Below, piece after piece: positions 352-59,545 of a stretch of 64,000 nt of DNA. The first letter of the stretch is position 1. Each line of letters starts with the position of its first letter. The notes under the pieces were generated by a model. The model searched no databases. It saw only the letters and a program-made list of their open reading frames with translations, and was not told the DNA's origin. The position numbers and the translations under genes were made by a program. Location of the stretch: assembly GCA_964016885.1 (NCBI GenBank), contig OZ024748.1, positions 5,642,001-5,706,000 on the forward strand, in the 5' to 3' direction. Origin of the DNA: Eledone cirrhosa. Taxonomy: Eukaryota.

Positions 352-628
352 ATATGACGTGTTTCCGTAGGAAAGGTAACGGAAAGGAGAGTGCTCTATG
401 TAAGCTACAGAGCTATTTAGTTATGTAATAAACAACATAAGACAATTATTCCATTTACCAAAGGTTTCACGAAGGAAGATGAGCTCGACACAGACGTCTG
501 AAGCCATCCATCCTCTTCAAATAAAATTCATTCTGATGACGATTTCAGACGTCTGTGTTGAGCTCATCTGTCTTCGTGAAACCTTTGGTAAATGGAATAA
601 TTGTCTTATGTCGTTTATTACATTAAAA
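352..628. mobile_element. Fold-back cassette with degenerate hammerhead (Penelope-like terminal repeat relic)
   Basis: Inverted arms about 423-503 and 544-624. Plus arm: ttcatt-CTGATGA(533-539)...GAAA(578-581)-CC-TTT-GG-TA-aatgga. Minus-strand tail hairpin at 389-413. TA-rich flanks. Confidence 0.7.
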
Positions 629-689
629 AAATATATATAGTTAATTATATATATTTAATTACATAATAAACTACACAATATAATATACC

Positions 690-1150
690 TGAATATGCAA
701 GCTCGTCTCTTATTTAAATCAGAGACGAGCTTACATATTGAGACATATCTGAGAATCTTTCGATTCCAGAGTCAGATTCGATCAATAATACATTGTTCCT
801 CGAGCTGATCGACAGTGAAACATATGTAATATGTTATTTAAATATGTTATGATGCAACACTGCTTCTTTGTTCCTTTATTCTGCTACTAATTCGCATTAT
901 CGTTAGAGAATCGGACGCCATGCTTTCCAGCATAGAGTTACTTCCCTTTACGGACTGTGTTCAAATCCTGCCGAGGTTAACTTTGCCTTTCATACATACG
1001 GGATCGAAAAATAAAGTACCAGTAATGTACTGGCGTAATTGCTGGCCTTGTGCCCAAAGTAGAAACAATTATACTCTGCTCTGCGCGAAGCATCGAGTTC
1101 TCACCCAGCATACCGCTTATGGACGCAATTATCTTTCACCTATACACCCA
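690..1150 (+). mobile_element. Hammerhead-like cassette (same family as 8496-8858), interrupted by a SINE at 891-1072
   Basis: Short hairpin at 692-739; gacatat-CTGAGAA...GAAA-C-ATAT-G-TA-atatgtt; the tail atactctgctct...gcatcg resumes after the SINE and is collinear with 8642-8858. Confidence 0.6.
891..1072 (+). mobile_element. tRNA-derived SINE (family S1)
   Basis: B-box gttcaaatcc, core gcctttcat...gatcgaaaaataaagtaccag and 3' end gtagaaacaatt, shared with more than 10 other copies in the window. Confidence 0.85.
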
Positions 1151-1619
1151 TATATATATATATATATATTTATATATATACATACATATATATTTATATA
1201 TACATATATGTATATATATACATATATGTATATATATATATATGTATATATATATATATATATATATATATATACATATATATATGTGTGTGTGTATATA
1301 TATATATATATATATATATATATATATATATATATATATATATATATATATATATATACATATATATATGTGTGTATATATATATAACGGATGACATGAT
1401 CACCTCCACTAACATAATCCACTAGATCATGTGATATGTAAGACGTTATTGATCCTTATTTACTTAATTGTCTTCTGGATCATTTCATCTTCGATTTTCC
1501 TGTTATATTCTTATTTTCTTTATTTCTTTAGCCATCTACTTTCATACTCTATCTTCCTTATCATCATCATCACCGTCTTCAATTCCATAACCTTATATAT
1601 CCACCTATAATATTATATA

Positions 1620-2125
1620 TATATACCTCGATGTACCCTGCAATACTGCTATCTAACCTGTAATATCAAGAAATACACTGTTATGCACCTATTTACTCTG
1701 TAATATCACTATATACCCTGGCATGCCTCTATATGCACTGCAATGCTCCTATCTACTCTGTAATATACTGATATACTATGATATGCCCATATCTACACTA
1801 TAATATCCAGATATACCATGCTATGAATCTATCTAACATATAATATCCTGATATACTATGATACGCCACTATCTACCCTATAATATTCTGATATACTCTG
1901 CTATGAGACTAACCTGTAATATCCAGATATACCCTGCTATGAGACTATCTACCCGATAATATCCATATATACCCTGTTCTAGCCCTATCTATCCTGCAAT
2001 ATCATATATTCCATGCTGTCCCCAGTGATACCAATCTATACCTAATATACCCTACTATATCACCCTAGACTCACCTGTACCTGCTATACCCTGTTACATC
2101 ACCCTAGACTTACCTATATACATAT
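1620..2125. repeat. Degenerate ~40-bp minisatellite
   Basis: Successive units such as taatatccagatataccatgctatgaatctatctaacata (1801-1840) and taatatcctgatatactatgatacgccactatctacccta (1841-1880); roughly 10 copies. Confidence 0.8.
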
Positions 2126-2469
2126 TATACTTCATCAGCAGGTGTCTATTGTCCATATATCTTTAAGAAAGAAATAAAAAATATATCATAGTGATTACGA
2201 CATGAGAGGAGGGAGAGAGAGAGGAAGTTAGGAGGAGGAAGTGAAGGATGTGAGGAGGGGAGTGAAGGAGGCGGGAAGTGAGGTAGAGAGGACAACTGGT
2301 TGAACAACTAATCACAGTATCATGCACACTTGACTGCACAGTTCACATCACTGCACACTTGACAGAACAATGTGTGCATGCACAATGCAATAGTTGACAA
2401 AAGATGTCCGCATAGCAGTGGCCATAACAGTAACAGTACTAATAATAATAGTAACTGTACTAATACTAC

Positions 2470-2895
2470 AAATAATAATAATAATAATAATAATAATAAT
2501 AATAATAATAATAATGATTTCATTTATTAGCCACAAGGGCCGACATGTAGGGGACAATACGACCTCCATATAGTAAGTAATATTAATAATATGACGTTGA
2601 TATCCTTAACAACAATAACAAAAAGATACAGGAAAGGGGAAGAAGAAGAAGAAGAAGAAGAAGAAGAAGAAGAAGAAGAAGAAGAAGAAGAAGAAGAAGA
2701 AGAAGAAGAAGAAGAAGAAGAACAACAACAACAACAACAGCAACAACAACAACAACAACAACAACAACAACAAAAACAAGTAGCGGCAAAGCAAGAAACT
2801 GAATATATTTGAATAATAACGATAATCTAGATATTGATAACAATAATAATAACAATAATGACAAGATCAACAACAACAGCAACAACAACAACATG
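2470..2895. repeat. Compound trinucleotide microsatellites (TAA)n, (GAA)n, (CAA)n
   Basis: Directly visible runs, with (GAA)n at about 2639-2722 abutting (CAA)n. Confidence 0.95.
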
Positions 2896-56205: not shown

Positions 56206-56417
56206 AATAACGATTTCTAGTATAGGCACAAGGTCAGTAATTTGGGTGGAGGGGAAAGTCGATTAAATCGACTCCAGTACGTTACTGGTTTTATCGGCCC
56301 CGTAAGGATGAAAGGCAAATGTAATGTCGGCGGGATATGAACTCAGACCGTAAAGGACCATAACTCTATGCTGCAAAGCATAGTGTCCGACTCTACCGAT
56401 ACTGCCAATCTACCGCC
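56206..56417 (-). mobile_element. SINE S1 (longer 3' variant), head-to-head with the next copy
   Basis: Reverse complement of S1 with the gtcgattaaatcgac insert. Confidence 0.85.
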
Positions 56418-56473
56418 ATTATGATATAAGTAATAATAATGTATTCCATTATTTGTCAAAGTATTATTATTGA

Positions 56474-56652
56474 ATTGGCAGTATTGGTAGAGGGTCAGAC
56501 ATGCTTTCCAGCGTAGTTACGTCCCTTTACGATCTGAGTTCAAATCCCGCCGAGGTTAACTTTGCCTTTCATCCTTACGGGGTCGATAAATAAAGTACCA
56601 GTAATACACTGGATAATTGCTGGCCTTGTGCCAAAAGTAGAAACAATTATTA
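56474..56652 (+). mobile_element. SINE S1, full length
   Basis: A box, B box, core and tail. Confidence 0.9.
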
Positions 56653-57447
56653 ATAGTTATTTCTGGTGATGATATTCTCTCCAATCTATATACAACATAC
56701 CGTTAGGTCTGGTAATATACCCAACATCAGACATACTGAGGCAAATCTTATATAAAAAAAGAATATTATAAATATCATCATCAACCTCTCCATCATCATC
56801 TTCACCATCATCACAATCATCATCATCAAAACAAGCCGCATCATGTCTATTGTTAATTTTGTTATTAAAAAATATTGTATTTGTTTATGTATTGTTTATT
56901 ATGTTGCTTTTTGTGTTTATTTTATGTTCTATGTTGATGTTGTTGTTGTTGTTGTAGTCGTCGTCCTTGTTATTTAAAAGGTCCACAGCAATATCGGTAA
57001 TAGCCACTGATCTTATTATTGATTATCGAACTCGATAATTGTAACACTAACGAAAGACTACTTTTATTTAGTATTTTTATTTATTTATTTACTATTTCTT
57101 TTTTTCTTTTAGTAAGTGACTTCGGCCCACACACTGCTTACTCAGAGACATGTAAAGATAGAAAGATAGACAAACAGATAACAACAACTACATACAGCCA
57201 TCTCTCTCTATATATATACATATATATATACATATATATATATATAAATATATATATATATATATATATATATATATATATATATATATATATATATATA
57301 TATATATATATATATGTGTGGTGTATATATATATATATATATATATATATATATATATATATATATATATATATATATATATATGTATATATATATATAT
57401 ATATATATATATATATATATGTATATATATATATATATATATATATA

Positions 57448-57587
57448 TGCCGTTTCAACAGCATGTTCAGATCTAACTGTCGAGACGACCGGAGCTCAGC
57501 CGTCGGGGTCCTGACCCTTTTTCTATTACCCATAGTATCGAATACTCTGGTGCGTTATGGTCCAACTGGGTTGCTTCCTTCGTTATA
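57448..57587 (+). mobile_element. Family A cassette (diverged)
   Basis: ggagctcagccgtcggggtcctgacc plus a shortened tail; TA flanks. A more diverged relative lies at about 57783-57900. Confidence 0.7.
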
Positions 57588-59350
57588 TTTATATATATAT
57601 ATAAATATATATATATATATATATATAAATAGAGACAGAGAGAGAAAGAAAGAAAGAAGAGAGAGAAATAATGAGAGAGAGAGAGAGAGAGAGAGAGAGA
57701 GAGATATAGAGAGAGAGATATATATATATAGAGAGAGAGACAGACAAACAGACAAACAGACATACATATAGATATCGTAAGTATTCGGGGACCGTCTATA
57801 TTGTAAAGACTAGAACTATCTGTTGAAACGGCAAGAGCTCAGCTGTCGGGCCCCGACAAACTCTACCATAATAAAAAAGTTTAAAACTGGTTCTATCCTA
57901 TATATATATATATATAGTCTAAATATATGTGTAGATGTATGTGTGTAAGTGTATTAGTGTGTGCCTAAAAGGACATATAAATAAATAGATAGATATGGAA
58001 TGAAAGGGAATGGAAGAGTGAGATAGTCAAATATATGGATGGATGGATGGACTGATATATAGATGGACAAGTAATGATTGAAAGACCAAACAGACATACA
58101 AAACATATTATCTACTCTGATACACACAGATATTCCAACAAACAATCAGATATGGAAAGAGAAGAAAAAATAAAGAGAATCTGTGTGAGAAGACGAGAGT
58201 AAAAGATAGAGAAACGTCAGATAAGCAGAGATAAACAAATAAAACACAGGTTATATATGTACGTGTGTGTGTGTATTTGTAAGTGTGGTGAGGGTCTTTT
58301 GTGTCTGTGTGCTTGTATGTGTTGTAAATGTCAAATGTGTGGTTGGGTGTGTGCGCGTGTGTGTGTGTGTGTGTGAAATTATATGTATGCGGAAATGGAG
58401 GCGTCTGTAATCATCTACTGACGAAAATATGTATATACGCATTTGTATATTCAGACATGTATGCTTGTATGTATATATATATAATATATATATATATATA
58501 TATATATATATATATATATATATATAATACATATATATATATATATATATATATATACATATATATATATATTCATAGATATATATAAATATATATATAC
58601 ATAGATAGATATATATGTGTATACATAAATATATATAATATAATATATATATATACATATATATACATATATATATACATATATATATACGTATATATAT
58701 ATATATATATACATATATATATATAATATATATATATATACATATATATATACATATATATATACATATATATATACATATATATACATATATATATACA
58801 TATATATACAGATATACATACATATATATATATATATACATACATATATATATATATATATATATATATATATATATATATATATATATAGATATATATA
58901 TATATATATAAATATATATATATATATATATATATATTTATATATATATATACGTTTATATACATATACATATACGTATACGTATACTACAGACACATAC
59001 ATTGCCATTGTTTATGTGTTTACGTAGCCATACGTAAAGCAATAATGATAGTTTTCTCATTAAATGTGAGGTAGGCGACCTATAATTGCCTACAATTCCA
59101 CCATATTTACTTTTAAACGTAACTAGATGGTCAGATTCTTCTCACCTGTTACATATTTGTCATATTCTTCCTATTAATGTACTATTACATTGAATCAGTT
59201 TAACAGAATGATCAAGCGTTGAAGTTTCTTCTACCAACTGTTAGCTATTCAAATCTCATAACTTATAAATGAAAATACAAAAAAATAACATATACATACG
59301 TTCTCATCGTATCATGGAATATACAGTTGATATTATATATATATATATAT

Positions 59351-59545
59351 ATGAAAAAGTATGACCCCGACGGCAGAGCTCAAGCCGATAGACGGCTATT
59401 TCTGGACTCAGAAATAGCCGTTGAAACGGCTTGAGCTCTGCCGTCGGGGTCATACTTTTTCCTATTTCCCACTCTACTACTCTAAGTATTGAATATTCTG
59501 GTGCGTTATGGTCCATTTGGTTCCTTACCACAATTCCTTTGTTAT
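59351..59545. mobile_element. Family A fold-back cassette
   Basis: Palindrome centred near 59406 plus the family A tail; (TA)n on both sides. Confidence 0.85.

What the first reader, a model, noticed from the sequence alone, without database searches (positions are those of the whole stretch)
352..59545. A recurrent three-part RNA cassette in (TA)n: fold-back repeat, hammerhead ribozyme and conserved tail hairpin
Seen: about 17 short cassettes from at least 7 sequence-unrelated families (352-628, 690-1150, 8496-8858, 9995-10153, 13552-13866, 42540-42790, 45598-45740, 52015-52490 and about 9 family A copies) sit in or beside TA runs. They share an inverted duplication, a whole or 3'-half hammerhead core and an 80-100-nt unique tail. 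Known: Penelope-like retroelements carry minimal type-I hammerheads in their pseudo-LTRs and often leave inverted 5'-truncated termini, and non-autonomous retrozymes also use hammerheads. Inference: these are termini or non-autonomous derivatives of a diverse, TA-targeting ribozyme-bearing retroelement radiation, dense here at about 1 per 4 kb. No RT or GIY-YIG ORF is visible in the window.
Basis: partly seen in the sequence, partly recalled or inferred. Interest (0 to 1): 0.9.

Follow-up and report, generated by a model that had tools for sequence, protein, structure and literature searches.

The report
Twin RNA hairpins mark Penelope insertions
These short fold-back repeats are stub insertions of Penelope-like jumping genes of the little-studied Hydra type, and each of their two ends sits just before a copy of one small, widely conserved hairpin that likely tells the enzyme where to start copying, a testable handle on how these elements move.

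Summary
The cassettes are real. The window holds 23 tail-bearing copies, and 41 of 46 sampled tail ends abut (TA)n against 6 of 55 for a SINE. They are stub insertions of Hydra-clade Penelope-like elements (PLEs). Reverse transcriptase (RT) plus GIY-YIG parents were found for 6 families, and family F also forms a 557-nt non-coding tandem unit. Fold-back, tail, hammerhead and TA targeting are published PLE traits, and this scan noted similar stubs in other genomes. Three things were not found in print. (1) One hairpin (RYTC-stem-2-nt bulge-GARY-RCWY) occurs twice, a few bases after each of the two fixed insertion ends. It lies upstream of the ORF in 31 of 46 metagenomic Hydra-like loci (about 2 expected), with covariation. 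(2) All 29 two-armed family A cassettes pair one short-end arm with one long-end arm of the same subfamily. (3) Arms pile up at a likely transcription start (TATA about -30, initiator, excess 5' G). In family A this start lies inside hammerhead loop II, which explains its half-ribozymes. Likely mechanism: two RTs on one RNA prime both cut target strands and run off the RNA's 5' end. RT binding and the start site are inferred, with no RNA data.

The parts
352..624 (-). Family B cassette: long arm plus tail on minus (3'-half hammerhead 456-468, hairpin 1 at 389-413), short inverted arm on plus with whole core 533-590
742..1150 (+). Family C2 cassette (related to C): core 749-828 with a G8 change, SINE S1 inserted at 889-1073, tail 1074-1150; a separate small fold-back at 683-748
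8003..8097 (+).
8500..8858 (+). Family C cassette: short arm (minus, core 8553-8625), long arm (core 8647-8728, long stem II), tail 8786-8858
   Evidence: tail runs into ORF in L201
9995..10153 (+). Family D cassette: short arm on minus with near-whole mutated core (10033-10060), truncated long arm, tail 10091-10153
   Evidence: endonuclease-linked parent L218
13552..13870 (+). Family E cassette: head-to-head whole hammerheads (13610-13646 minus, 13677-13713 plus), hairpin 1 at 13777-13808, tail to 13870
   Evidence: parents L212, L216
14798..14891 (+). Family H tail copy (others at 22631-22717, 38380-38485 with variant core on minus, 41330-41436)
   Evidence: parent L033
21835..21957 (-). Family A copy, degraded
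27071..27209 (-). Family A copy: short arm starts at the +1 A, long arm truncated to the tail
32255..32405 (+). Family A copy (diverged subfamily), 3'-half hammerhead plus tail
32431..32638 (+). Family A cassette; long arm starts at +1 (32500) preceded by filler and G
33479..33573 (+). B-related tail (B2)
41456..41660 (-).
41802..41872 (-). D-related short arm (D2)
42540..42856 (+). Family F cassette: both arms cut inside stem II (3' halves 42620-42633 minus, 42647-42660 plus); the family also forms a 557-nt non-coding tandem unit elsewhere
45598..45742 (+). Family G cassette: 3'-half hammerhead 45635-45654 and degenerate hairpin 1; whole core in other copies such as L205
51701..51895 (+). Family A cassette; hairpin 1 at 51822-51849
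52015..52490 (+). Family P cassette: whole cores 52071-52115 (minus) and 52304-52348 (plus), tail 52405-52490
   Evidence: tandem parent L024
53761..53967 (-). Family A cassette, both arms reach +1
57449..57584 (+). Family A copy (diverged subfamily)
59349..59544 (+). Family A cassette

Best explanation
The cassettes are stub insertions of Hydra-clade Penelope-like retrotransposons, likely made when two RT-endonuclease subunits, held on one transcript by two copies of a conserved hairpin, prime both cut strands of a (TA)n target and copy toward the RNA's 5' end until they run off at the likely transcription start. Shown in sequence: parent layout (3' UTR, hammerhead, site 1, hairpin 1, site 2, hairpin 2, ORF); two fixed outer ends per family, a few nt before each hairpin; one short and one long arm per cassette; matching subfamily variants in the two arms; variable junctions with filler; 5' ends clustered near a TATA/initiator. 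Inferred: the hairpins bind RT and set the start of cDNA synthesis (compare a template boundary); both arms are first-strand cDNAs joined head to head by repair; the 5' cluster is the capped RNA start. The tail is simply the distance between the two start sites. Hairpin 2 is not copied at TA-flanked ends, so stubs would be unable to re-mobilise as units. In family A the predicted start lies inside loop II of a U3-A8 hammerhead, so the transcript's 5' end would carry only a half ribozyme and only the 3' copy could cleave. Full-length or tandem copies would need a jump from the RNA 5' end to another template or a read-through RNA.
For: Parents. L227 is a complete family A element with an open 776-codon stretch. 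Its model (mean pLDDT 91.4) matches RTs including TERT (6zdp Z 14.4) and the I-TevI GIY-YIG domain (Z 8.9, residues 588-691). Hydra marks are present. Two ends. 3' ends are bimodal in the 7 well-sampled families of 8 profiled (A 321/400, P 506/600, E 401/500, C 424/500, D 285/347-350, H 313/400, G 217-222/287-290; B had only 11 hits). Hairpin. Site to hairpin distance is about 4-7 nt in the parents. A strict motif lies upstream of the ORF in 31 of 46 metagenomic loci and twice in 14, against 1.96 and 0.02 in shuffles. The first inner pair, not used for selection, is a standard pair in 40 of 40 distinct hairpins (27 C-G, 12 T-A, 1 G-T). The outer stem covaries across this genome's families (ACTC/GAGT, GCTC/GAGC, GTTC/GAAC). 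In the metagenomic loci 15 of 22 repeat ends stop 0-8 nt before a hairpin (16 called, the L325 call is wrong). One RNA. 29 of 29 two-armed A cassettes are short plus long (18 of 18 outside the query-biased loci L041-L070), and arms differ by at most 1 diagnostic base in 29 of 29 against 9.7 expected, maximum 20 in 1000 permutations. Run-off. 142 of 193 A arms start at reference 256-268 and 7 extend well upstream, 6 or so being parents fetched on purpose. 1 of 45 distinct incidental A tails carries native upstream sequence. The upstream 143 nt has 6 genome hits against 2041 first-look candidates for the stub. TATA-like boxes lie at -29 (A), -31 (E) and -30 (G) before the 5' cluster. TATAWA lies 35-42 nt before the core in 6 of 17 metagenomic hammerheads (7 with any hit; shuffle mean 1.9, maximum 6 of 500). 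The base before +1 is G in 71 of the first 100 listed of 1631 matches, against 45 of 100 of 442 at an internal control site (p=3e-4). Literature: the Poseidon RT cuts and extends both strands from two internal sites that bound the tail and needs RNA 3' of them (PMC11167929).
Against: No RNA or biochemical data were obtained. The 5' G is not dominant: in loci not chosen by pattern only 8 of 39 arms at +1 have G (17 C, 14 T, 0 A), and 5 of the 8 could come from the partner arm. About 13 of 32 Gs in 42 inspected arms can be explained by the partner arm or a duplication. The family E count (61 G of 100 listed) is confounded by partner arms. No TATA box at -30 is seen for P, C, D or H. 5' ends are diffuse in D and H, many E and most F top hits extend far upstream, and the window's F and G half-ribozymes are plain truncations. 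The histograms mix targeted and untargeted loci. The count of 6 parents covers one A subfamily only. Subfamily concordance would also arise if one source locus dominates in a cell. 15 of 46 metagenomic loci lack the strict hairpin, and 7 of 22 ends do not fit. Metagenomic loci are related, so the counts are not independent. Self-cleavage was not tested, and several window cores carry disabling changes.
Confidence: 0.68

Rival explanations
1. Snap-back or self-priming: one cDNA (or an antisense template) folds on itself and is copied back, giving the head-to-head inversion; the short end is where back-copying stops.
For: Arms always share subfamily variants. Self-priming on an antisense template was proposed for head-to-head pLTR palindromes (PMC3846280 Discussion). 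Native hairpins sit near some junctions (P).
Against: Both outer ends keep the same spacing to their own hairpin copy. Cross-family chimeras join a P arm to an A arm (L131, L140, L149, L153, L158) and use sites freely: 3 short-long, 1 long-long, 1 short-short. Junctions hold fillers, A tracts and loopless palindromes. Poseidon RT extends both strands in vitro.
Confidence: 0.12
2. The 5' pile-up is an RT stall or RNA processing site at hammerhead stem II, not a transcription start; stubs are ordinary 5'-truncated PLE ends.
For: The family A boundary lies in a predicted extended stem-loop II. PLE copies are known to be heavily 5'-truncated (PMC8557442). F and G window copies are cut within the ribozyme. 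The G excess is partial.
Against: The boundary is nearly absolute in A. It is about 40 nt upstream of the cleavage site. It falls 29-31 nt after a TATA-like box on an initiator-like A in three unrelated families. It lies outside stem II in E and G.
Confidence: 0.15
3. The cassettes are non-autonomous units (MITE-, SINE- or retrozyme-like) that amplify as such.
For: Very high copy number; many A copies share near-identical junctions; F has a true tandem non-coding unit.
Against: Junctions vary base by base between copies. Ends are asymmetric, not terminal inverted repeats. Hairpin 2 is absent from stubs. Parents encode RT-GIY-YIG, not a transposase.
Confidence: 0.05

Closest known systems
Hydra clade of C-terminal EN+ Penelope-like elements (Craig et al. 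2021, PMC8557442)
   Same: RWK/RWR, DKT, CxCx5C linker, no CCHH, CxxC and CxH around E and N, single ORF, canonical hammerhead, (TA)n targets, inverted 5'-truncated copy plus tail.
   Different: The paper describes a few dozen families and 30-40-nt PLE tails. Here one genome has at least 11 families, roughly 250,000 tail copies or more by extrapolation from 300 kb, and 60-115-nt tails. The twin hairpin and the 5' pile-up are not in the sections read; its supplements were not seen.
Poseidon PAc of Anolis (Frangieh et al. 2024, PMC11167929)
   Same: Two internal RT start sites bound the tail; both strands cut and extended; predicted dimer; RNA 3' of the start sites is needed.
   Different: Other clade. 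Starts lie in an AC-rich stem-loop inside the ORF. No duplicated, cross-species conserved hairpin is described in the main text; supplementary figures S1-S2 could not be seen.
[quoted passage not shown]
   Same: Short palindromic helix III; U3-A8 core variant (Schistosoma); opposite-strand pairs 100-700 bp apart.
   Different: No mention, in the parts read, of a promoter inside stem-loop II or of systematic half-ribozyme stubs.
Animal non-LTR retrozymes (bioRxiv 10.64898/2026.07.22.740005)
   Same: Family F: tandem 557-nt non-coding unit with a type-I hammerhead and PLE-type ends.
   Different: Most cassettes here are single head-to-head stubs, not tandem arrays.
Retroviral minus-strand strong-stop DNA; telomerase template boundary element (both recalled, not tested)
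   Same: cDNA primed near the RNA 5' end runs off at the cap; an RNA stem next to the template positions a TERT-like RT.
   Different: Primers here are target DNA ends, two per insertion, and the run-off product is fixed in the genome.

Membership tests
EN+ Penelope-like elements | Single ORF with telomerase-like RT and C-terminal GIY-YIG endonuclease | tested here: met
   L227 open 776-codon stretch; fold matches to TERT and I-TevI. Pfam gave no hit for it.
EN+ Penelope-like elements | pLTR from partial tandem, adjacent inverted 5'-truncated copy, tail at one end | tested here: met
   L024, L227, L201; bimodal 3' ends
EN+ Penelope-like elements | Type-I hammerhead in the pLTR | tested here: met
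   Whole cores with stems I-III in long copies of 9 of 9 families examined, two with variant cores (A U3-A8, H at position 4)
EN+ Penelope-like elements | Ribozyme self-cleavage | not testable with these tools
   needs an in vitro assay
Hydra clade | RWK motif and DKT in place of DKG | tested here: met
   RWR/RWK and DKT in L227, L181, L027, L024
Hydra clade | CxCx5C linker, no CCHH, CxxC and CxH flanking E and N | tested here: met
   L227 and L024 endonuclease regions against the definition
Hydra clade | Insertion into (TA)n | tested here: met
   41 of 46 against 6 of 55
Hydra clade | Elements generally under 3 kb | tested here: not met
   A and P units are about 3.7 and 4.1 kb because of 1.2-1.3-kb 3' UTRs; a descriptive trait, not a diagnostic one
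Hydra clade | Placement in an RT tree with reference Hydra elements | not tested
   no named reference sequences at hand
Hydra clade (families B, G, I, J, F) | Physical link to a Hydra ORF | tested here: inconclusive
   no uninterrupted link; assigned by shared hairpin, hammerhead and TA ends only
Neptune/Nematis PLE | CX2-5CxxC linker and CCHH motif | tested here: not met
Non-LTR retrozyme (family F) | Tandem non-coding unit with a type-I hammerhead in each repeat | tested here: met
   557-nt period, longest open frame 72 codons; one of the two cores in L358 has a change
Non-LTR retrozyme (family F) | Circular RNA intermediate | not testable with these tools
   no RNA run listed for the one stretch searched (family A)
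MITE / DDE transposon | Symmetric terminal inverted repeats and a transposase parent | tested here: not met
   asymmetric ends, variable junctions, RT parents

The most novel reading that the evidence does not exclude
Hydra-clade PLEs carry an unrecorded, animal-wide RNA element: twin GCTC-stem-UU-GAGCACY hairpins that act as template-boundary handles for a dimeric telomerase-like RT. Both strands of a cut target are primed from one RNA, and the default product is a double strong-stop stub ending at the cap. In family A the promoter has moved inside the hammerhead's loop II, so the ribozyme is whole only at the transcript's 3' end. Any RNA placed upstream of a hairpin pair could be written into (TA)n by a roughly 720-residue enzyme.
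Probability: 0.45. Interest if true: 0.85.

Novelty: new variant of a known kind. Interest (0 to 1): 0.66.

Why it matters
How PLEs make their tail and inverted ends is an open question that the papers read here themselves flag. This finding supplies a roughly 25-nt candidate RT-positioning motif conserved across animals, an apparently intact young element (five near-identical pLTR copies), and a one-short-one-long rule, all testable in the existing in vitro assay. Because PLE RTs are sisters of telomerase, a boundary hairpin would bear on how telomerase RNA use arose. It also explains a very large class of stub repeats that annotation would likely file as SINEs or unknowns.

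Tried and rejected
Rfam: no ribozyme or motif hit at gathering score; the E-value scan was swamped by microsatellite-like miRNA models. Pfam and PDB sequence searches did not recognise the Hydra ORF; the fold searches did. My first clade guess, Neptune, was rejected on motifs. 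A search for a canonical CUGANGA 5' half for family A found only junction artefacts and chimeras or nothing; the parent has the U3-A8 variant. My idea that family F also starts inside stem II was rejected: most F top hits run through the whole core. Two independent RNAs as the usual source was disfavoured by subfamily concordance. The cap-G test in family E is confounded and not counted. The apparent I-family ORF link crosses a SINE. RNA: no RNA holder listed; no reads were laid. The relaxed hairpin scan of the window alone is weak (14 against a mean of 3.2, maximum 7). No covariance model or RT tree was built. Literature searches listed no paper on the twin hairpin or on run-off at the start site; the library lacks most subscription journals, including Arkhipova 2006, and Repbase.

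Full report
Observation. The window (G000:C8:5642001-5706000, a 3.0-Gb animal genome) is AT- and microsatellite-rich. By recall it resembles a cephalopod; this was not tested. After masking, self-BLAST shows the named fold-backs and 8 family A copies. Using each family's tail as query gives 23 tails in the window, 13 in 100 kb of flanks and 25 in 300 kb from 30 arbitrarily placed stretches. The last figure suggests some 250,000 copies genome-wide as a floor, since only window families were queried. Five whole strict hammerheads occur against 0.2 in shuffles. Complete tail ends touch (TA)n in 41 of 46 cases, SINE S1 ends in 6 of 55. C and C2 are related and E and I share two 19-nt matches; the other families show no BLAST similarity to each other.

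Parents. Each searched cassette is a genome-wide family (first-look candidates: P 113, A 2041, E 1542, C 3112, F 982, B 3194; 40 scored each). Extending hits gave RT and endonuclease ORF pieces next to the same ends. L024 (family P) shows an inverted truncated copy, a pLTR with tail running into the ORF, a 3' UTR, a second pLTR and (TA)n. L227 is a complete family A element with an open 776-codon stretch. Uninterrupted links were found for A, P, E, C, D and H; none for B, G, F or J; the I link crosses a SINE; 1 of 204 SINE hits scored as linked, which gives the background. The protein has 1473 relatives at E<=1e-20 among 8000 candidates, the best 120 about 39-53% identical and essentially unnamed. 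Its model is confident and matches RTs including telomerase, plus the I-TevI GIY-YIG domain. The motifs fit the Hydra clade as defined in PMC8557442 section 11. Family F also forms a 557-nt tandem unit with no ORF.

Hammerheads. Long copies of 9 of 9 families examined have type-I cores with paired stem I and short, mostly palindromic helix III. Family A has the U3-A8 covariant core, known from Schistosoma (PMC4209133). Stem II is long in A, B, C and F.

Two fixed ends and a twin hairpin. Outer ends are bimodal in the 7 well-sampled families of 8 profiled. Where a tail runs on into the ORF (A, P, C) or the next unit (F, a degenerate copy), a second copy follows the long end (site 2) at the same spacing. 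I fetched 78 Hydra-like loci from metagenomes. Of 49 with a listed ORF start that I gave the script, 46 had enough distinct upstream sequence; 31 of these have the strict motif and 14 have it twice, against 1.96 and 0.02 in shuffles. The first inner pair, not selected for, is standard in 40 of 40 distinct hairpins, switching between C-G and T-A. The outer stem is nearly invariant in those loci but covaries among this genome's families. Among 56 loci examined, 22 repeat ends lie away from contig ends, and 15 of them stop 0-8 nt before a hairpin. These loci are related, so the counts overstate independence.

Arm pairing. All 29 parsed two-armed A cassettes have one site-1 and one site-2 arm (18 of 18 without the query-biased set), and the arms agree in subfamily variants far beyond permutation (29 against 9.7). 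Five P+A chimeras, picked up by a pattern search and so of unknown frequency, use sites freely. This fits two RTs on one RNA as the rule and two particles as the exception, but one dominant source locus per cell could mimic the concordance.

5' ends. Family A arms stop at or just inside one A (142 of 193 at reference 256-268). One of 45 distinct incidental tails extends into native upstream sequence, and that sequence has 6 genome hits for this subfamily. In the parent this A sits on an initiator-like word 29 nt after a TATA-like box, both within loop II of the hammerhead. E and G show TATAAAT 31 and 30 nt before their clusters. In metagenomic loci TATAWA clusters 35-42 nt before the core in 6 of 17 hammerheads, which would put the start at stem I. 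A TATA box and TCACT initiator in a pLTR were already noted in rotifer PLEs (PMC3846280), whereas D. virilis Penelope has a TATA-less internal promoter (PMC2377424). The base before +1 is G more often than at an internal control (71 against 45 of the first 100 listed), as expected from copying a cap (recalled from L1 work). Against this: only 8 of 39 unselected arms have G, part of the excess can come from partner arms, the E test is confounded, and P, C, D and H lack a clear TATA box. F's half-ribozyme in the window is a plain truncation.

Mechanism and comparison. The architecture (pLTR, inverted truncated copy, tail, hammerhead, TA target) is published (PMC8557442), and two internal start sites that bound the tail, with extension of both strands, were shown in vitro for Poseidon (PMC11167929). 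What this analysis adds is a candidate RNA determinant for the two sites, the one-short-one-long rule, and run-off at a likely transcription start as the source of the stubs. PLE origin is about 95% sure, two-site priming about 85%, the hairpin as the positioning element about 70%, and the start-site reading about 65% for family A.

Papers seen. PMC8557442: passages, outline, sections 3, 11, 12; supplements not seen. PMC11167929: parts 1-2 of 4 (main text); a search of 3 text supplements found nothing; figures not seen. PMC4209133: parts 1-2 of 4. PMC3846280: passages and Discussion. PMC2377424: passages. PMC13282606 (an octopus repeat annotation listing 31 recently active PLE families): part 1 of 3. 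bioRxiv 10.64898/2026.07.22.740005: part 1 of 5; supplements closed. Six searches listed nothing on the twin hairpin. Earlier notes of this scan describe fold-back PLE stubs in other genomes; the few lines shown do not mention the hairpin pair or the start site.

Verdict. Real, correctly read by the first stage, and of a known class. Interest rests on the twin hairpin and the run-off model, which are well supported as sequence patterns and untested as function.

Noticed in passing
window 889-1073, 9291-9391, 15772-15910, 19669-19763, 26377-26558, 27842-28023, 36618-36994, 38488-38668, 56271-56651, 62960-63104, 63902-64000: SINE S1, 13 copies; a tail-to-tail pair at 36618-36994 and a head-to-head pair at 56271-56651. 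One copy sits near site 1 of cassette C2 and one abuts an H copy.
   Followed up: partly
window 22462-22542 and 51372-51452: About 80-nt element with short terminal inverted repeats between TA runs; looks like a Tc1/mariner-type MITE (recalled).
   Followed up: no
window 33866-33927 and 45782-45843; 53230-53390: Related short repeats with a CTGACGA word and a possible GAAA but no recognised tail; perhaps decayed members of further families.
   Followed up: no
window 16753-16807 and 41198-41255; 48499-48558: An unclassified two-copy repeat ending near TA, and a 60-nt fold-back next to TA.
   Followed up: no
window 1638-2017: 40-nt-period minisatellite array.
   Followed up: no
L131, L140, L149, L153, L158, L133, L134, L141: Chimeric cassettes joining arms of different PLE families, or short captured hammerhead pieces at the junction.
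   Followed up: partly
L233, L247, L264: A tracts of 4-16 nt at head-to-head junctions of family A.
   Followed up: no
L230:6969-8738; L027:5103-6755: RT ORFs of other PLE types (no Hydra marks seen); the L230 one has a CxxC in its C-terminal endonuclease-like region.
   Followed up: no
L228:4728-5567: Tc1/mariner-like transposase reading frame (recalled motifs).
   Followed up: no
L272 and L285, upstream of the ORF: A (TA)n run lies exactly at site 2, between tail and hairpin 2, in an ORF-bearing copy.
   Followed up: no
L033 upstream of the H hammerhead: H family core has A at position 4 and a short tandem duplication in the 3' UTR.
   Followed up: no
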